DNA of 64,000 nt from Planctomycetota bacterium (GTDB lineage: Bacteria > Planctomycetota > UBA1135 > UBA2386), in assembly GCA_046290465.1 (NCBI GenBank), contig JBKAGP010000001.1:1024001-1088000 (forward strand). Direction: 5' to 3'. Both the position numbers and the translations under genes were made by a program. The notes below the pieces were generated by a model. That model searched no databases and was not told the DNA's origin. It worked only from the letters and a program-made list of their open reading frames with translations. Shown piece after piece: positions 39,637-47,422 of this stretch (the stretch's first letter is position 1; the number at the start of each line of letters is the position of its first letter).

Positions 39637-41790
39637 ATGCGCGAACGACTTCTGTTGGTTCCTCTCGCGGTGTTGCTGTGCTTCGTCGACGTCGTTGGCC
39701 AGGCGCCTGCGACCGCCGACGCAATCCAGCGCGCCATCGCGGCCGCAACGATGGTGCCGCTGCACACCCATCCGTCCGTCGCCGGCCAGCCGGACTACGG
39801 CTGGTGGGCCGGCGGTCCATCGTGGAAGGCGTCGTTCCACGACGGCCTCGCCTTCTATCCGTATCGCGGCAGCGAACGCGAACGGGTGCAGTTGCACTGG
39901 CGCACGGCGTCGATCACGGCGGGCGGCGAGGCGCTGCCGCTCGACGCGTGCGGCTCGTCGCAGACCGACGATTGCTACCAGACGCACTACCCGGGCGTGA
40001 CCGAGCTGTACGAGCTGAGCGAGCATGGCGTCGAACAGAAGTTCGTGTTCGATCGCCGGCCGGCACGGCCTGGCGCGATCGTGGTCACCGGTCGGCTGTC
40101 CGGCGACTTCGAGGTCGACTCGCGCACGGCGCGACACGAAGAACTGCTGTTCTGCGTCGACGGCGAACCGACGGTGCGCTACGGCAAGGCCTTTGCGATC
40201 GGCGCCGACGGCCGCCGGGTCGCGGTGCCGGCGAGCGTCGACGGCGACCTGCTGCGGCTGCACGTGCCGGCCGAGTTCGTCGCGGCGGCGCGCTTCCCGC
40301 TGACCATCGACCCGCTGATCGGCAACGCGCTGATCAACTCCAACTTCAACGCCTCGCCCGCGACCACGGTCGAGGTCGCGTGTTCGACCGAACTCGACCA
40401 GATGGTCGTCTCGTTCGTGCGCCAGTTCTCGCTGTTCGACCGGGATGCGTTCTCGCTGGTCGGCAAGCAGGACTTCACCGGGTTCACGTACCACTGGATC
40501 GAGAACAGCGCCAGCTACGGCGTCTCCGACCTCGACGTCGCCTACTGCCAGGGCCAACGCTCGTACGTGATCGCGTCCTATCGCGTGTCCGCGTTCGTGA
40601 CGATCCCGTTCGTCTACGTGCAGCGCGACGACCAGATGCAGAACAACGCCGGCACCACCACGCTGATCTCGACGCCGGTGGCGGGCTACTCGTGGACCGA
40701 GCCGTCGGTCGGCGGCGGCTACGGCACCTGCGGCAAGGCGCTCGCAGCCTGGAAACGGACCGGCTCCTCCCCCACGCAGATCGCGTGCTGCGTCGTCGAC
40801 TGCGCCAACCCTTCGGCCGTGCCGGCGTGGTTCGATCCGCACGGCGTGTCGACGCTCGACGACAGCGACCAGCCGGACGTGATGCCGATGACCAGGGACG
40901 GCTTGCCGTGGCGCGTCGTGTGGCGCAGCGAGGTCGGCGGGATCCACGAGATCCGCGCCGCCACCGTGTCGCAGTCGGGCAGCAGCCTGGGGTTCGTCGG
41001 CTACGACGGCACGGTCGCCGAGCTCGAGGCGCCACAGATCGCCGGCAGCTACGACGCCAGCGGCACGCTGCGCCAGGTGATGGTCTGGCAGCGCAACTCG
41101 TTGCTGCTCGACGCCGTGCGCGCCTACGACTTCTCGCTCAACCTGCCGATCCGAACCATCGCCAGCGGCCCGTCCCTGAGCCTGCGCGACGTGGTCGCCG
41201 ATCACCTCACCGGTTCGAACTTCCTGATGGCGTATTCGACCGTGCTCGGGCTCGTGCCGGAGATCTACGTCGCTCGCCTCGGCGGCACCGGGGAGGTCGT
41301 CGATTCAGAAGTGCTCGGTCCGTACGGCAGTGTCGGCATGTGCTTCGAGACCACCGGCGCACCGGACTTCCTGTTCGCCTACGACGACACCGGGCCGCTG
41401 CGGCAGATCCGCGGCGCGACGTTCGTGTATCCGGCCGACGCCGAGTCGGTGCCGTACGGCGCCGGTTGCGCGACGTCGACGCTGTCGGCGCCGTATCCGT
41501 TTGCTGGCAACCACAACTTCGCGGTCCACGTCGGCGGCCTCGCCCCCAACACCCTGCTGATCCTGGCGGCCGGCGTCGCGACCGCCAACGCCTCCCTGCA
41601 ACCGCTCGGCATCCCGTGCCCGCTGCTGGTGTCGCCAGTGGCGACCTTCGGCGCGGTCGGCGGCAGCAACGGCGCGACGTTCCCGATCCCGCTGCCGGAC
41701 GATCCGGCGTTCCTCGGCGACCTCTACGTGCAGGCGATCCTGCCGTTCGACATGCAGGCGACCGAGGGCCTGCGCATCCAGGTCAGGTAG
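39637..41790 (+). CDS. Secreted protein, tandem paralog A (+ shared C-terminal domain)
   Basis: Signal peptide, N-domain ending FPLTIDP, beta-rich middle, YGAGC C-terminal domain. Confidence 0.9.
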   Translation: MRERLLLVPLAVLLCFVDVVGQAPATADAIQRAIAAATMVPLHTHPSVAGQPDYGWWAGGPSWKASFHDGLAFYPYRGSERERVQLHWRTASITAGGEALPLDACGSSQTDDCYQTHYPGVTELYELSEHGVEQKFVFDRRPARPGAIVVTGRLSGDFEVDSRTARHEELLFCVDGEPTVRYGKAFAIGADGRRVAVPASVDGDLLRLHVPAEFVAAARFPLTIDPLIGNALINSNFNASPATTVEVACSTELDQMVVSFVRQFSLFDRDAFSLVGKQDFTGFTYHWIENSASYGVSDLDVAYCQGQRSYVIASYRVSAFVTIPFVYVQRDDQMQNNAGTTTLISTPVAGYSWTEPSVGGGYGTCGKALAAWKRTGSSPTQIACCVVDCANPSAVPAWFDPHGVSTLDDSDQPDVMPMTRDGLPWRVVWRSEVGGIHEIRAATVSQSGSSLGFVGYDGTVAELEAPQIAGSYDASGTLRQVMVWQRNSLLLDAVRAYDFSLNLPIRTIASGPSLSLRDVVADHLTGSNFLMAYSTVLGLVPEIYVARLGGTGEVVDSEVLGPYGSVGMCFETTGAPDFLFAYDDTGPLRQIRGATFVYPADAESVPYGAGCATSTLSAPYPFAGNHNFAVHVGGLAPNTLLILAAGVATANASLQPLGIPCPLLVSPVATFGAVGGSNGATFPIPLPDDPAFLGDLYVQAILPFDMQATEGLRIQVR

Positions 41791-41801
41791 CTGCGATCCC
41801 C

Positions 41802-43958
41802 ATGCTCCACCGTCCATGCATCCACGTGCTGTTCGCCGCCATGGCAGCAGCTTCTCCGTGCGCCCAGCAGACTGCGGACGATTCCGCCTCGCTCGACCGT
41901 GCGATCGCCACCGCGCGGCTGGTGCCGCTGCACACCCAGGCGGCCGTCGCCGACCAGCCGGACTACGGCTGGTGGGCCGGCGGCCCGTCGTGGAAGGCGT
42001 CGTTCCACGACGGCTTCGCCTTCTATCCGTATCGCGGCGGCGAACGCGAACGGGTACAGCTGCACTGGCGCACGGCGTCGATCACGGCAGGCGGCGAGGC
42101 GCTTGCGCTCGACGCGTGCGGCTCGTCGCAGACCGACGACTGCTACCAGACGCACTATCCCGGCGTGACCGAGCGGTACGAACTGCGCGAGCAGGGCGTC
42201 GAACAGAAGTTCGTGTTCGATCGCCGGCCGGCAAGGCCCGGCGCGATCGTGGTCACCGGCCGCTTGTCCGGCGACTTCGAGGTCGACTCGCGCACGGCGC
42301 GACACGACGAACTGCTGTTCTCCATCGACGATGAACCGACGGTGCGCTACGGCAAGGCCTTTGCGATCGACGCCGACGGCCGCCAGGTCGCGGTGCCGGC
42401 GAGCGTCGACGGCGACCTGCTGCAGCTGCACGTGCCGGCCGAGTTCGTCGCGGCCGCGCGCTTCCCGCTGATCCTCGACCCGCTGGTCGGCAATGCGCTG
42501 ATCAACTCCAACTTCAACAGCGCACCTGCGACCTCGATCTCGGTCGCGTGCTCCACCGTGCTCGACCAGATGGTGGTCACGTTCGTGCGCAAGTTCGCCG
42601 CCAACGACCTCGACGCCTACTCGCTCTCAGGCAAGAAGGACTTCACCGCGTTCACCTACCACTGGATCGACAACTCGGCCAGCTGGACGACGCCCGAGGT
42701 CGACGTCGCCTACTGTGCCGGCGAGCGCAGCTACGTGATCGCGTTCGTTCGTGCCGGCGGGTCGTTCGATCTCCCGTACCTGTATGTGCAGCGCGACGAC
42801 CAGATGCAGAACAACACCGGCGCGACCACGTCGTTCACGCTGGGAGTCCCCGGCAACCAATGGGCGGAACCATCCGTCGGCGGTGGCTACGGTTCGTGCG
42901 GCAAGGCGCTCGCGATGTGGACGTTCTCGACCGCCGGCAGCAAGCACGTCACGTGCGCCGTCGTCGACTGCGCCAACCCGCTTGGCGGCCTCACGTATTG
43001 GAATCCGAGCACCGTGCTCCCGTACGACGAAGCCGACCAGCCGGACGTGATGCCGATGACCAGGGACGGCCAGGCGTGGCGCATCGCCTGGCACGCGATC
43101 GCCGGCGGTGAGCACGAGATCCGCAGCGCCGACGTCGCGCAGAACGGCGGCACCTTCGGCCCGTTCATCCTCGAACGCACCGCCGCGACGATGGGCTCGC
43201 CGCAGATCGCCGGAACGATCACCAGCTCCGGCGGGCTCTCGACCGTGCTCGTGTGGGAACGCGCCGGGCCGTTCAACCCGGTGATCCGCATGACCGACTT
43301 CTCCCTGAACCCGCCGCGCACCATCGCGACGGGGCCGCTGCTGCGGCTCCGCGACCTGGTCGCAGACGCAACCACTGCCGCCAACTACCTGATGACCTAC
43401 TCGGCCGTCGTCGGCCTCAACCTCGATGTGTTCGTGGTGCGGCTCGGCGGCACCGGCAACGACGTGCAGACCGAAACCCTGGGTCCGTATGGCAGCGTCG
43501 CCATGTGCTTCGAACCGGCGGGAGAACCGGACTTCCTGATCGCCTACGACCATGCGGGGCCGCTGCGGCAGATCCGCGGCACGACGTTCGTCTATCCCGC
43601 CGGCGCGCAGTCGGTGCCGTACGGCTCGGGCTGCTCACCGGCTTCGCTGTCGGCGCCGTATCCGTTCGCCGGCAACCACAACTTCGAGGTCACCGTCGGC
43701 GGCCTGACGCCCAACACACCGGTGGTCCTGGCCGTCGGCGTCGCGGCGGCCAACGTCAGCCTGCAGCCGCTCGGGATCCCGTGCCCGCTGCTGGTTTCGC
43801 CGACCGTGACCTATGCAGCGGTCGGAACGGCTGGCGCCGGCGTGTCGTTTCCGATCCCGCTGCCGGACGACCCGGTGTTCGTCGGCGACCTCTACGTGCA
43901 GGCGATCCTGCCGTTCGCGTCGCAAGCTACGGCTGGGATGCGCATCCAGGTGCGGTGA
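41802..43958 (+). CDS. Secreted protein, tandem paralog B (+ shared C-terminal domain)
   Basis: Colinear with paralog A. YGSGC C-terminal domain. Confidence 0.9.
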   Translation: MLHRPCIHVLFAAMAAASPCAQQTADDSASLDRAIATARLVPLHTQAAVADQPDYGWWAGGPSWKASFHDGFAFYPYRGGERERVQLHWRTASITAGGEALALDACGSSQTDDCYQTHYPGVTERYELREQGVEQKFVFDRRPARPGAIVVTGRLSGDFEVDSRTARHDELLFSIDDEPTVRYGKAFAIDADGRQVAVPASVDGDLLQLHVPAEFVAAARFPLILDPLVGNALINSNFNSAPATSISVACSTVLDQMVVTFVRKFAANDLDAYSLSGKKDFTAFTYHWIDNSASWTTPEVDVAYCAGERSYVIAFVRAGGSFDLPYLYVQRDDQMQNNTGATTSFTLGVPGNQWAEPSVGGGYGSCGKALAMWTFSTAGSKHVTCAVVDCANPLGGLTYWNPSTVLPYDEADQPDVMPMTRDGQAWRIAWHAIAGGEHEIRSADVAQNGGTFGPFILERTAATMGSPQIAGTITSSGGLSTVLVWERAGPFNPVIRMTDFSLNPPRTIATGPLLRLRDLVADATTAANYLMTYSAVVGLNLDVFVVRLGGTGNDVQTETLGPYGSVAMCFEPAGEPDFLIAYDHAGPLRQIRGTTFVYPAGAQSVPYGSGCSPASLSAPYPFAGNHNFEVTVGGLTPNTPVVLAVGVAAANVSLQPLGIPCPLLVSPTVTYAAVGTAGAGVSFPIPLPDDPVFVGDLYVQAILPFASQATAGMRIQVR

Positions 43959-44073
43959 CGCGCGAGCTCGGCTCCGCCCACCGATCGCGTCCCCTCGCCC
44001 CATCCCCGGCGATGCCAGGCGATCGGCCAGGAACGCCACTCGGCGGCACGCGCGCACTGCCGGCGATCGCCGA

Positions 44074-44571
44074 CTAGAACCTCTTCACGATGCGCAGCAT
44101 GCGCGCCTGCGCCGCGTCGACCGAGAGCTGCTCCTGGGCCTCGTTGGCGAGATGCAGCGCGCCGGAGGCCAGCTTCGGCCGCACGATCCAGCGACCGCGT
44201 TGCTCGGCGAACGACTGGAGCTCCTGACGATGGCCTTCGAGCCATCGCTCGACGTCGGCCCCCTTGTCGGCACCGGGCTCGATGCGCAGCTCGGGCAGCA
44301 CCACCAGCAGGTCGCCCCGATCCTCGAAGATCGGCAGCAGCGCATCGCCGGCCTCGAGCGACGCGCGATCCTGGTCGACCAGCCCCCCTGCCGGCACGAC
44401 CGCGACGCCGCGCCGCGAACGCAGCGACTCCTGGATCTCGCGCTGCGCGCCGTCCGAGACCTTGCACGACGACGCACGGTGCTGGTCGACGGCGACGAAG
44501 TCCCGGCTCGGCGTCAGCTCGATGCGCTTGCCGTCCGCGTAGTAGTAGTCGCCCGAGTGCTGCTCGCTCAT
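44074..44571 (-). CDS. Stand-alone subtilase-propeptide-like protein
   Basis: ATGA overlap with the S8 stop. Motif-level similarity to the upstream S8 N-terminal region. Confidence 0.7.
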   Translation of the reverse strand: MSEQHSGDYYYADGKRIELTPSRDFVAVDQHRASSCKVSDGAQREIQESLRSRRGVAVVPAGGLVDQDRASLEAGDALLPIFEDRGDLLVVLPELRIEPGADKGADVERWLEGHRQELQSFAEQRGRWIVRPKLASGALHLANEAQEQLSVDAAQARMLRIVKRF

Positions 44572-46043
44572 GGATGGCGTCGCGCCAGCCACAGGGCGCG
44601 GTAGACGTTGAGTCTACCGTGACCGACGGTCGGGTTGGGGAACGACGATCCCCCGACGTGGTCGCAGCCGTCGACGATCAGCTGCCGCACCTGCTGCTCG
44701 TTGAGGTCGGGCCGCAGGCTCAGGATCAACGCCGCCGCGGCCGCGGCCTGCGGCGTGGCGCTCGACGTGCCGTTGAACGAGTCGGTCCACATGCTCGCCG
44801 AGTAGCCGCGGCTGCCGCGGATGTCCGCCGTCCGGATCCCCACTCCCGGGGCGACCAGGTCGAGCTCGGGGCCGTGGCTGCTGGCCCACCAGTTCTCCCC
44901 GTCGGCCGAGGTCTTCGTCTTGCGCTTGTCCCACTGGTTGCTGGCCCCAACCGTCAGCATGCCGGGCAGGTCGGCCGGGAAGCCGATGGCGACGTCCTCG
45001 TTGCCGGCCGCGACCGCCACGACCGCCCCCAGACCACCGCGCCCCTGCGTGCGCGCCCGCTCGAACGCGCGGATGATCGCGTCCGACGGCAGACCGCCGC
45101 CCCACGAGTTGGACAGCACGTCGCAGTTCTGGTCGTCCCACGACCAGTCGATCGCGTCGGCGGTGTCGAAGTCGTCGAAGATCCAGAAGCCGAAGTTGTC
45201 GCTCTTGGCAATGCGGACCCCGACGATGCTGACCCCGGGCGCGACGCCGCGGCGGTCGGCGTGACGTGATGCGATGATGCCGGCGCAGGCGGTGCCGTGC
45301 GCGTCGTCACGGTCCGGCCGAGCCGTCGCGTTGTTGTCGACGAAGTCCGCCTCCGCAACGACCGGAAGCCACGGGTGCGTCGAGTCGACGCCCTCGTCGA
45401 GAACGGCGACGCGGATCGCCGCGTCGCCTTCGGTGATGCTCCACGCGGCCAGCGCGTGCACGTCGGCGCCGGGCACTCCCGGAGAACCGTCGTTGCGCAG
45501 GTGCCACGACGACGTCGCCGTCGACGAACTCGGGGCCGGCCGCTGCACGGCGCGCAGCAGGTTGGGACTCGCCGACGCGCAGGTGCCGAGCTGGGTCAGT
45601 TCCTGGGCAGCATCGAACACACTGCGGATGCCGACCTCGTCGCCGTCGGGGGCCTGGAACAGGGACTTGTCGCGCCGTCCTCCCTGCACCTCGACGAAGC
45701 CCCGGTCGGCCAGCCAGCGCAGGGCGGCAGCCCGCGGTTGTTCGACGATCAGGCTCTGCGTCGGGATATGGATGACGCCGCGCTCGCCCTGCGGTGGCAC
45801 CACCATCAGGGCGTCCTCGCGGATCTCGTGGAAGCGCGCCTTCAGGCGCGATGCCTGGTGGTGCAGCGTCGCGGCGACCCCTGCGAGCGCCTGCTTCACC
45901 GGCGCCGACTTGCGCACCCCGCGCAGTCCCTGCGGGCCGGGGGACGACGGCCCGAACGAGGACAGGCTGCGCATGCGCAGTTCGACGGTCTTGCCGGCTG
46001 CCCGGAACTTCAACGAGAGACCCTTCTTGCTCTTGGTTGCCAT
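44568..46043 (-). CDS. S8 (subtilisin-like) serine peptidase, no signal peptide
   Basis: Catalytic triad VAVLDEGVD, HGTACAGII, FNGTSSATP; oxyanion AAGN. Confidence 0.95.
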   Translation of the reverse strand: MATKSKKGLSLKFRAAGKTVELRMRSLSSFGPSSPGPQGLRGVRKSAPVKQALAGVAATLHHQASRLKARFHEIREDALMVVPPQGERGVIHIPTQSLIVEQPRAAALRWLADRGFVEVQGGRRDKSLFQAPDGDEVGIRSVFDAAQELTQLGTCASASPNLLRAVQRPAPSSSTATSSWHLRNDGSPGVPGADVHALAAWSITEGDAAIRVAVLDEGVDSTHPWLPVVAEADFVDNNATARPDRDDAHGTACAGIIASRHADRRGVAPGVSIVGVRIAKSDNFGFWIFDDFDTADAIDWSWDDQNCDVLSNSWGGGLPSDAIIRAFERARTQGRGGLGAVVAVAAGNEDVAIGFPADLPGMLTVGASNQWDKRKTKTSADGENWWASSHGPELDLVAPGVGIRTADIRGSRGYSASMWTDSFNGTSSATPQAAAAAALILSLRPDLNEQQVRQLIVDGCDHVGGSSFPNPTVGHGRLNVYRALWLARRHP

Positions 46044-46047
46044 CTTG

Positions 46048-46899
46048 CTAGTTGCCTCCGAGCTGACGGAGAATGCGGTGCCGCGAGGCCACGCGCGCCG
46101 GATCGTGGGCGCCCGCCGCGGCCGCAGCGCCCGCCGCGGCCGGACCGGCACCACCCCAGTTGGGGAAGAAGCGGAGGTTGGTCTGGGCCTCGATCGTCGC
46201 GACATCGACGACGAGCTCGTCGAGCGGCGTCCACTTGTCCTCGTCCTGCTCGATGCGGAAGGCGACGACGTCGACGTTGCTGCGACGGTCCCACGGATAG
46301 CGGAACGGGTCGACGGTGATACAGAAGTAGGCGTCCGGGATCGGCACCTTCTTGCCACCCGCACGATCGAGCGTGTCGGGATCGTCCCCGAAGATCGGCC
46401 CGACGATGCACCACACGTGATCGCGCTCCGAGGTGTTCTCGATGTTGCGGATCGCGTTCTCGAGCTTGGCCCACACCCCGGTGTTGAGCGTGCCGCGCTG
46501 CGGACTCATGTTGGACATGAAGAACGTCTCCATCTGCGCGAGGCGCCCGAACTGCAGGTTGATGACCTCGTTCGGCACCATGTGCCCGACGTGGTAGGCG
46601 ATGTTGTTCTTCTTGCCGAACGTCTGCGGCCCGATGCGCTCCGCCGCCGCCAGGCGGGGATCGTCGTAATACAGATGGGGCCGGTCGTACTTCACGTCCC
46701 TGGTCGCGAGCGCGACCCGATCGGCCGTCCACGCGGGCTGCAGCCGCTCGGCGCAGTAGCCGACGACGAAGCCGTGGTTGACCAGGATCTGGATCGGACG
46801 CTGCGCATCCTGATTCTGTGGAGCGCCCTTGAAGACGATCAGGTCGATCAGGTGCGCCATCGGCTGGCTGCTCGGATGGATGGTCGTGTGGTCGGTCAT
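46048..46899 (-). CDS. DNA/RNA non-specific endonuclease (NucA/EndoG-type His-Me), no signal peptide
   Basis: YHVGHMVP, ETFFMSNMSPQ...LN.GVW..LE..IR, GPIF, VPIP..YF. Confidence 0.9.
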   Translation of the reverse strand: MTDHTTIHPSSQPMAHLIDLIVFKGAPQNQDAQRPIQILVNHGFVVGYCAERLQPAWTADRVALATRDVKYDRPHLYYDDPRLAAAERIGPQTFGKKNNIAYHVGHMVPNEVINLQFGRLAQMETFFMSNMSPQRGTLNTGVWAKLENAIRNIENTSERDHVWCIVGPIFGDDPDTLDRAGGKKVPIPDAYFCITVDPFRYPWDRRSNVDVVAFRIEQDEDKWTPLDELVVDVATIEAQTNLRFFPNWGGAGPAAAGAAAAAGAHDPARVASRHRILRQLGGN

Positions 46900-46937
46900 G
46901 GCGCGAAGTCACCGGGCGAATGGGGCGGCACGTTCCA

Positions 46938-46969
46938 CCAATTGGGAACCCACCCAATTGGGAACCCAC
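46938..46969. promoter_or_regulatory. Perfect tandem 16-bp direct repeat (CCAATTGGGAACCCAC x2), candidate operator
   Basis: 39-70 bp upstream of the nuclease start. Each unit contains the palindrome CCAATTGG. Confidence 0.6.
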
Positions 46970-47422
46970 TCCGACCAACGCATTCCCGCCGCCATACCTG
47001 ACAACTTTTCTCGCGATCCCGGCCCGCCCGGATCGCGAGCGGCGACGGGCGCACCGCTGGCACGATCTCGAGGCCGGCGCGCGCGATCTCGCCAAACCGC
47101 CGTAGCGACGTCTCGGCGGCATGCACCGCGTCGAGCGTGTCGACGTTCCACGCACGGGCTCTCGCCAGTGCCGCAAGTCGTTGCCGCCGCCCCTTGCGAG
47201 CAGTTCGATGCTACTGAAGGCCCCGCAGACGACCAGACAGGTCCCTGGCGCCGCGAAGCCGAACGGCAGGTCCTGCTCGTCGCGGCCCTCGGCGCCGTTC
47301 TCGCGTGACCGCCAGCGCAATTGCTGTTCCTCGCCACGGACTTGCCGAGACAGCAGCGGCAGCGGTTCGCCGGCCCGGCCGCGCGATTCCAACGGGTCGC
47401 GAGGTTAGCATGCTGCGCAACC

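What the first reader, a model, noticed from the sequence alone, without database searches (positions are those of the whole stretch)
44074..46969. Candidate new protease-gated system: cytoplasmic nuclease + subtilase + stand-alone copy of the protease's propeptide
Seen: three tightly coupled genes (4-nt gap, then ATGA overlap). They encode a NucA/EndoG-type nuclease, an intact S8 protease and a 165-aa ORF. None has a signal peptide, although both enzyme families are usually exported. The small ORF echoes the S8 N-terminal prodomain at motif level: YYYADGKRIEL vs KFRAAGKTVEL, LVVLPELRIE vs IHIPTQSLIVE, and ALHLANEAQEQLSVDAAQARMLRIV vs VFDAAQELTQLGTCASASPNLLRAV. The nuclease ends in an exposed Gly/Ala linker (GGAGPAAAGAAAAAG) plus a short basic tail. 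Established: subtilisin propeptides inhibit their proteases, and protease-activated effectors occur in bacterial immunity. Inference: a trans-acting propeptide inhibitor restrains the protease, which on triggering would clip the nuclease tail and cause abortive infection or cell death.
Basis: partly seen in the sequence, partly recalled or inferred. Interest (0 to 1): 0.85.

Follow-up and report, generated by a model that had tools for sequence, protein, structure and literature searches.

The report
Cytoplasmic protease with separate propeptide twin
A signal-less subtilisin-type protease is followed, across several bacterial phyla, by a small unannotated gene related to protease propeptides that is predicted to plug the protease's active site and likely keeps it in check, while the nuclease next to them here is probably an occasional passenger rather than a fixed third part.

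Summary
The three genes are real and tightly coupled. Two form a conserved unit: the 165-aa gene lies just downstream of this S8 clade in 20 of 22 loci with room to see it, and the two co-diverge (Mantel rho 0.70). The small protein has no Pfam match but is a true prodomain homologue (HHalign 96.6%, same predicted topology). It is modelled on the catalytic domain with its C-terminal strand in the active site (ipSAE 0.92, controls 0.00). It is an ancient paralogue, not a copy: it matches the full two-lobed prodomain of partner-less sister S8s, whereas its own protease has a remodelled N-lobe.

The nuclease is not co-conserved: absent from all 107 other S8 loci and from 7 of 7 pair-bearing genomes; no sensor or defence island. 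It belongs to its own signal-less EndoG-type subfamily with a conserved linker plus RHRLL tail, some members fused to a zinc protease. One related S8 sits beside a different signal-less nuclease, so occasional protease gating stays possible (about 20%).

Verdict: an undescribed cytoplasmic protease/trans-propeptide cassette, a variant of ASP-ORF2 and SpeB-Spi. The three-gene defence system is not supported as a conserved system.

The parts
46048..46899 (-). Signal-less EndoG/NucA-type non-specific nuclease, 283 aa; H106, N139, E147 intact; member of a ~277-aa subfamily; accessory here
46051..46155 (-). Nuclease residues 249-283: variable low-complexity linker and conserved C-terminal RHR(I/L)LxQL motif (R275 invariant in 41 aligned sequences)
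44568..46043 (-). Signal-less S8 subtilase, 491 aa, with prodomain and intact D216/H249/S427 triad; ends at the catalytic domain
45528..46043 (-). S8 prodomain (about residues 1-172): N-terminal hairpin, basic low-confidence loop (34-45) where the ancestral N-lobe was, conserved alpha/beta C-lobe
44074..44571 (-). Stand-alone two-lobed prodomain homologue, 165 aa, no Pfam family; predicted trans inhibitor/chaperone of the S8; start overlaps the S8 stop (ATGA)
46938..46969 (.). Exact 16-bp tandem duplication upstream of the nuclease start; single copy in five other strain data sets; role unknown

Best explanation
The locus holds a conserved two-gene cassette, a signal-less subtilase followed by a stand-alone relative of subtilase prodomains that is predicted to bind the catalytic domain and likely acts as its inhibitor in trans, plus an upstream nuclease that is not conserved with the pair and is probably an accessory gene. 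Steps: (1) shown: both genes lack signal sequences, are adjacent (stop and start overlapping here) and co-occur and co-diverge across phyla. (2) Predicted: the protease folds as a zymogen with its own prodomain. (3) Inferred from subtilase biology: that prodomain is cut and lost on maturation. (4) Predicted: the small protein occupies the same surface, with its last strand (157-165) in the substrate groove touching H249 and S427, so it would silence mature enzyme in the cytoplasm. (5) Inferred: because it keeps the N-lobe that the protease's own prodomain has remodelled, it may also serve as an external folding helper, as ORF2 does for ASP. (6) Inferred: loss of the small protein would release a toxic cytoplasmic protease, giving toxin-antitoxin-like behaviour that fits the patchy spread and the unrelated insertion sites.
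For: Small gene directly downstream in 20 of 22 loci with S8-profile score >=400 bits and >=200 bp downstream (18 of 20 after merging two near-duplicate pairs; 2 of 24 dropped for no room), and in none of the lower-scoring S8 loci. Record titles span Planctomycetota, Actinomycetota and Proteobacteria. Mantel Spearman 0.705 over 18 pairs, 0 of 5000 permutations as high (shared descent of adjacent genes gives this too). 158 family representatives at E<=0.001. Profile homology to the cognate prodomain 96.6%, E 6.5e-10; the small-family HMM's best hit lies in the first 200 residues in 120 of 120 S8s hit, of 121. AF2 pLDDT 94.4 and 88.4 with the same strand/helix order. Among Foldseek rows, the ASP chaperone ORF2 (3wqb_B) has prob 0.97, though E 0.055 and rank 15. 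Complex score 0.92, best of 3 controls 0.00; the mark was reached by 116 of 157 solved complexes and 2 of 215 mismatched pairs; runs agree in >=97% of contacts, partner pLDDT >=90; contacts include residues 249, 313-322, 347-349, 425-427. The small family aligns over 151 columns to the full prodomain of 11 partner-less sister S8s but over only 81 columns to the cognate prodomain. Found in 1 of 339 genomes of the own class and the S8 in 1 of 401 of the phylum; flanking genes are unrelated from locus to locus.
Against: Binding is a model, and propeptide-subtilase complexes are solved, so the pass may come from likeness. The protease keeps its own prodomain, so a second inhibitor is not obviously needed. 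L039 has a related S8 with a remodelled N-terminus and no small gene in locus or genome. Fold-library matches of the small protein are generic (best VIA Z 7.4, none >=8; no Foldseek E<=0.001). Toxicity and the trigger are not shown. The nuclease is coupled by a 4-nt gap and is kept with the pair in other strains, which a mere passenger need not be.
Confidence: 0.65

Rival explanations
1. One reading: the protease/inhibitor pair is a switch that has recruited a latent nuclease. When the small protein is lost, the protease cuts the nuclease linker, removes the RHRLL tail and causes cell death, for example during phage infection.
For: 4-nt gap. The nuclease subfamily has intact catalytic motifs (VGH in 121 of 121), no signal sequence and a conserved tail behind a variable 12-47 aa linker. 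Members are fused to a C-terminal HExxH zinc-protease-like domain (L210, P0381; P0389 carries only the start of that region; Pfam M8/M10/M43 hits weak, E 0.003-0.03). In L039 a signal-less S1/P1 nuclease with an 83-aa extension before the mature-equivalent start sits between two S8 genes, 9 nt upstream of a relative of this protease. NucA-peptidase coupling, sometimes with S8, is described (PMC7159879 section 32), and proteolytic activation of a nuclease zymogen is shown for MBL, one clade of which goes with S8 (PMC12642450 passages).
Against: No sensor domain, and no PADLOC hit within 19 kb. A basic tail is not an obvious DNA mimic (inference). The one other nuclease context read has no S8 neighbour and no small gene in that genome.
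Confidence: 0.2
2. The small protein is mainly a folding or assembly partner that supplies the lost N-lobe function to the zymogen and is then released or degraded. It does not restrain the mature enzyme, which does housekeeping or non-classically exported proteolysis.
For: The partner gene goes with the remodelled N-lobe: 11 sister S8s with a full prodomain lack it. ORF2 is described as a chaperone and only temporary inhibitor of ASP (PMC5638518 passages).
Against: The cognate C-lobe is intact and well predicted in place, so the docking site is taken in the zymogen; the model puts the small protein on that same site and into the active site. L039 lacks the partner yet has an intact-looking protease.
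Confidence: 0.12
3. The small ORF is unrelated to the protease's control and the three genes are chance neighbours.
For: Pairwise similarity is not significant; no Pfam or solved-structure sequence match.
Against: 20 of 22 adjacency, co-divergence, profile homology and the complex model.
Confidence: 0.03

Closest known systems
Aeromonas sobria serine protease ASP and its external chaperone ORF2 (PDB 3wqb; PMC5638518)
   Same: S8 protease followed directly by a small gene; ORF2 inhibits ASP and its C-terminal region contacts the catalytic site (passages); structural likeness of the small protein to ORF2 (Foldseek prob 0.97, E 0.055).
   Different: ASP is secreted and is called propeptide-deficient (reference title); here the protease has no signal peptide and keeps a prodomain. 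No ORF_2_N Pfam hit for the small protein.
SpeB-Spi of Streptococcus pyogenes
   Same: Protease gene next to a gene for a propeptide-analogue inhibitor (PMC2873492 passage).
   Different: C10 cysteine protease; exported (recalled). Here both partners appear cytoplasmic and the protease is a subtilase.
Stand-alone subtilisin propeptide-like inhibitors, MEROPS I9 (POIA1, yeast PBI2; names recalled, POIA1-subtilisin complex 1v5i seen)
   Same: Propeptide-type alpha/beta fold and predicted C-terminal insertion into the active site.
   Different: About twice the size, with an extra N-lobe; no PF05922 hit; bacterial and operon-linked to one protease clade.
NucA-peptidase conflict system (System 3 of Kaur et al. 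2020, PMC7159879)
   Same: Endonuclease_NS domain coupled to peptidases, S8 in some cases, with proposed proteolytic deployment.
   Different: Its core peptidase is trypsin-like, which was not found here; no propeptide-like gene is mentioned in that section; the coupling here is not conserved.
IetAS-type subtilase/AAA-ATPase toxin-antitoxin and defence pairs (PMC8562856)
   Same: Two-gene module with a toxic intracellular S8 held by a partner (passages).
   Different: The partner is an AAA ATPase and the protease about 750 aa; only a 50-residue weak IetS hit here.

Membership tests
Propeptide-like subtilase inhibitors (I9-type) | Homology to subtilase prodomains | tested here: met
   HHalign 96.6%, E 6.5e-10; 95.6% over 151 columns to sister prodomains
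Propeptide-like subtilase inhibitors (I9-type) | Match to Pfam Inhibitor_I9 (PF05922) | tested here: not met
   0 Pfam families at E<=1
Propeptide-like subtilase inhibitors (I9-type) | Propeptide-type alpha/beta fold | tested here: inconclusive
   Same topology as the cognate prodomain model, but library hits are generic: Z<=7.4, lanthipeptide protease chain 4zoq_A Z 6.1, rmsd 2.3, 58 aligned
Propeptide-like subtilase inhibitors (I9-type) | C-terminal strand occupies the protease active site | tested here: met
   Prediction only: score 0.92 vs best control 0.00, residues 157-165 against 249 and 425-427; may reflect solved complexes
Propeptide-like subtilase inhibitors (I9-type) | Measured inhibition | not testable with these tools
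   needs an assay
ASP-ORF2 type external chaperone operons | Partner gene directly downstream of the S8 gene | tested here: met
   20 of 22 loci
ASP-ORF2 type external chaperone operons | Protease lacks a propeptide | tested here: not met
   Conserved, well-predicted prodomain in residues 80-167
ASP-ORF2 type external chaperone operons | Secreted protease | tested here: not met
   No hydrophobic signal stretch, family-wide, by proxy
NucA-peptidase System 3 (Kaur 2020) | Endonuclease_NS domain | tested here: met
   E 5.6e-27
NucA-peptidase System 3 (Kaur 2020) | Trypsin-like peptidase in the same operon or protein | tested here: not met
   No trypsin family among 12 called neighbours in window 36-55.4 kb or in the three genes
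Protease-effector antiviral modules (PMC12642450) | Conserved pairing of effector with protease | tested here: not met
   0 of 107 other loci, 0 of 7 genomes
Protease-effector antiviral modules (PMC12642450) | Protease fused or linked to a sensor (STAND, Hachiman etc.) | tested here: not met
   S8 ends at the catalytic domain; no PADLOC hit nearby
Protease-effector antiviral modules (PMC12642450) | Effector activated by cleavage; anti-phage activity | not testable with these tools
   needs experiments
IetAS toxin-antitoxin/defence | AAA ATPase partner gene | tested here: not met
   No AAA gene adjacent in the window; IetS hit only 50 aa, E 2.7e-5

The most novel reading that the evidence does not exclude
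The subtilase and its detached prodomain twin form a sensor-free proteolytic switch that spreads between phyla and picks up interchangeable nuclease zymogens: an EndoG-type enzyme held by a C-terminal tail here, an S1/P1 enzyme held by an N-terminal extension in L039. Decay or sequestration of the trans-propeptide during infection or translation arrest would be the trigger for DNA destruction and cell death.
Probability: 0.2. Interest if true: 0.8.

Novelty: new variant of a known kind. Interest (0 to 1): 0.55.

Why it matters
It gives a function to an unannotated family (158 representatives at 50% identity) and defines a compact, cross-phylum cytoplasmic protease cassette controlled by a detached prodomain. 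Known trans-propeptides mostly serve secreted enzymes; here both partners look cytoplasmic, the protease keeps part of its own prodomain, and the partner keeps the lobe the protease has remodelled, a testable case of a prodomain's jobs being split between cis and trans. The nuclease subfamily with its conserved tail and protease fusions is a separate lead for protease-activated effectors. Earlier unchecked notes of this scan report similar stand-alone prodomain pairs, so the theme is recurrent rather than unique.

Tried and rejected
Recent duplication of the neighbour's propeptide: rejected. True fusion of S8 and small domain: P0164 looks like one, but it loses the catalytic-Ser region just before an internal MSDYFYY start, so it reads as a frameshift run-through; fused forms were not searched by length. 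Conserved three-gene system: rejected. Defence island: only generic kinase hits at 1-1.5 kb and 22-25 kb among 46 other window proteins. Phage or plasmid carriage: viral contigs gave only distant nucleases (24-34% identity in the 80 kept of 125); no plasmid match for the nuclease at 1e-20 or for one small-protein relative; the small-family alignment could not be run on viral contigs. Contexts of stand-alone nuclease relatives: not reached; 0 of 251 and 0 of 401 sampled genomes, 1 other in 339 (the fused form), 0 in 5 and in three tiny genera. NuiA inhibitor in the own genome: no match, but the control rang nowhere, so uninformative. Promoter/terminator scan: none. No RNA holder listed. Cleavage register: the contact list does not fix P1, so no claim on Pro at 163/165 or Arg at 164 is made; a recalled Xaa-Arg preference of mirolase was dropped because the passage found concerns mirolysin. 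Sequence look-ups in earlier scan notes gave nothing.
Full report
1. Observation. The coordinates are right. On the minus strand lie a 283-aa ORF (46899-46048), a 4-nt gap, a 491-aa ORF (46043-44568) and, overlapping its stop as ATGA, a 165-aa ORF (44571-44074). Pfam names the first Endonuclease_NS (E 5.6e-27) and the second Peptidase_S8 (E 3e-42) and finds nothing for the third. Each is single-copy in the 6.59-Mb genome, apart from distant S8 paralogues. A hydrophobic-stretch proxy finds no signal sequence in the three and flags only 2 of 121, 1 of 150 and 1 of 121 relatives. Contigs from other studies span all three genes (X6 43939-47032, X8 43838-46943); of 18 listed strain differences inside the genes, 10 are synonymous (best-supported subset only).

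2. The small protein is a real, unannotated family. A word-based search found only itself, but HMMER over 1.84 billion representatives found 158 relatives at E<=0.001, nearly all 160-190 aa; I aligned 122 of the 151 listed, leaving out fragments and long forms. Pairwise likeness to the neighbouring prodomain is at chance level. Profile comparison is significant (96.6%, E 6.5e-10), and the family HMM's best hit falls in the first 200 residues for 120 of 120 S8s hit, of 121 (91 at iE<0.01; the cognate protein itself only iE 0.15). The reverse test works too: an HMM built only from 44 S8 prodomains picks 17 of the small ORFs out of 5378 ORFs at iE<=0.02. AF2 models (pLDDT 94.4 and 88.4) show the same N-terminal hairpin and the same order of elements over the last 85 residues. 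The Atlas's structural neighbours include S8 N-terminal regions at TM 0.61-0.72 by query. Foldseek gave no E<=0.001; among its rows is the ASP chaperone ORF2 (prob 0.97, E 0.055). VIA hits are generic ferredoxin-like domains (best Z 7.4).

3. Protease and small gene travel together. From 107 loci fetched with the S8 alignment, 24 score >=400 bits on the S8 profile; 2 end at the S8 gene. Of the other 22, 20 carry the small gene directly downstream on the same strand (18 of 20 after merging two near-duplicate pairs); the exceptions are L039 and L073, and no lower-scoring locus has it. Titles cover Planctomycetota, Actinomycetota and Proteobacteria. Pairwise identities of the two proteins correlate over 18 pairs (rho 0.705, 0 of 5000 permutations), as expected of genes inherited together. 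The cassette is rare: S8 in 1 of 401 genomes of the phylum, small gene in 1 of 339 of the class (only 3 and 10 candidates scored per genome), and no cassette-length DNA match in 14 congeners. Flanking genes differ at every locus and are mostly metabolic (127 proteins).

4. Not a copy but a split. Eleven sister S8s, also without signal sequences by eye, begin with a complete ~175-aa prodomain and have no partner gene of this family. The small family aligns to their prodomain over 151 columns (95.6%, E 1.2e-8) but to its own protease's prodomain over only the C-terminal 81 (97.2%, E 3.6e-11). In the cognate model the first lobe is replaced by a basic low-confidence loop and a helix. So the stand-alone gene keeps the ancestral two-lobed form while the cis prodomain is remodelled. 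L039 breaks the pattern: remodelled N-terminus, no partner.

5. Predicted binding. The small protein (5-165) on the catalytic domain (176-491) scored 0.92, best of 3 controls 0.00; that mark was reached by 116 of 157 solved complexes and 2 of 215 mismatched pairs; runs agree in >=97% of contacts, partner pLDDT >=90. Residues 157-165 pair with strand 286-292 and touch 249, 313-322, 347-349 and 425-427, and the conserved YYYA hairpin is in the interface. Propeptide complexes are solved, so this shows likeness more than affinity. The P1 residue is not fixed by the output.

6. The nuclease is not a conserved third part. phmmer with it hits only the own locus among 108; 15 of the 20 pair loci have >=1 kb upstream. 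A 41-sequence profile finds nothing at E<=1e-10 in 10 genomes, 7 of which carry the pair (incomplete MAGs, no positive control in those calls). PADLOC gives only generic S8 hits for the trio and only kinase hits, 19 kb away or more, for 46 other window proteins.

7. The nuclease is nonetheless unusual. It has 213 relatives, the best 120 at 50-65% identity (one identical), mostly over full length. They share a non-signal N-terminus, intact VGH (121 of 121) and LNxGxWxxLE (116 of 121) motifs matching Serratia nuclease (residue roles recalled), a variable linker and a terminal R-[LIMF]-[LMIA] motif, typically RHRLLxQL (111 of 117). Some continue into a HExxH zinc-protease-like domain (Pfam hits below cut-off). 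In L039 an S1/P1 nuclease without signal sequence lies between two S8 genes; its G88-H89 aligns with G5-H6 of solved mature chains, leaving an 83-residue extension; that the mature N-terminus binds zinc in this family is recalled, and one search found no paper to confirm it. That is one unascertained case among about 22 loci. I read only one other context of the nuclease subfamily (the fusion, no S8 nearby). In other strains the trio stays intact while both flanks change (at 47032 and between 43958 and 44055).

8. Mechanism. Most likely (0.65): a zymogen matures, loses its cis prodomain, and the co-produced twin plugs the mature enzyme and perhaps helps it fold; loss of the twin would free a harmful cytoplasmic protease. 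Coupling, homology and co-divergence are shown; docking is predicted; processing, inhibition and toxicity are inferred. A pure chaperone role gets 0.12, chance 0.03.

9. Known systems and papers seen. PMC5638518: passages, ORF2 downstream of asp, chaperone and temporary inhibitor. Kobayashi 2015 JBC and Kagawa 2005: titles in reference lists only. PMC2873492: passages. PMC7159879: passages and section 32. PMC12642450: passages. PMC8562856: passages. PMC8259862: passages. PMC9890683 (potempins): start of abstract in a listing. No supplements were read; those of PMC7159879 and PMC12642450 may list these clades. Searches returned no description of this pair, within an open-access library only. 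It works like ASP-ORF2, SpeB-Spi and I9 inhibitors but fails defining tests for membership in ASP-ORF2 operons, System 3, IetAS and sensor-linked protease-effector modules.

10. Verdict. Observation confirmed; interpretation partly supported. New variant of a known kind; interest 0.55. Earlier scan notes describe similar modules; they are unchecked and were not used as evidence.

Noticed in passing
L039:3390-7164: Three co-oriented genes S8 - S1/P1 nuclease - S8 in a Nannocystaceae MAG; the nuclease has no signal sequence and an 83-aa extension before the mature-equivalent start, which looks like a protease-activated zymogen.
   Followed up: partly
L210:346-2127 (G1088:C191); proteins P0381, P0389: Members of the nuclease subfamily fused through a helical linker to a HExxH zinc-protease-like domain; the tail motif is retained internally.
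   Followed up: partly
window 46938-46969: Exact 16-bp tandem duplication upstream of the nuclease; single copy in strains of runs X3, X4, X5, X6 and X7.
   Followed up: partly
window 43958-44055 and 47032: Both flanks of the three-gene block differ between strains (other sequence after 47032 in X5, X6, X7; other sequence between 43958 and 44055 in X4, X5), suggesting a variable region.
   Followed up: partly
window 39670-41790 and 41802-43958: Two tandem ~710-aa secreted-looking paralogues (75% DNA identity over the compared part) with no Pfam match; a further copy at G000:C1:1584335-1585264.
   Followed up: no
L073, L042, L011, L010, L018, L013, L019, L012, L026, L082, L074: A sister clade of apparently signal-less S8 proteases with a complete two-lobed prodomain and no partner gene of this family; function unknown.
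   Followed up: partly
L091:2063-2749 and L012:8682-9146: Other stand-alone prodomain-like ORFs downstream of S8 genes, not members of the small family by its HMM.
   Followed up: no
protein P0164: Apparent S8-small fusion (621 aa) that lacks the catalytic-Ser region; probably a frameshift run-through.
   Followed up: yes
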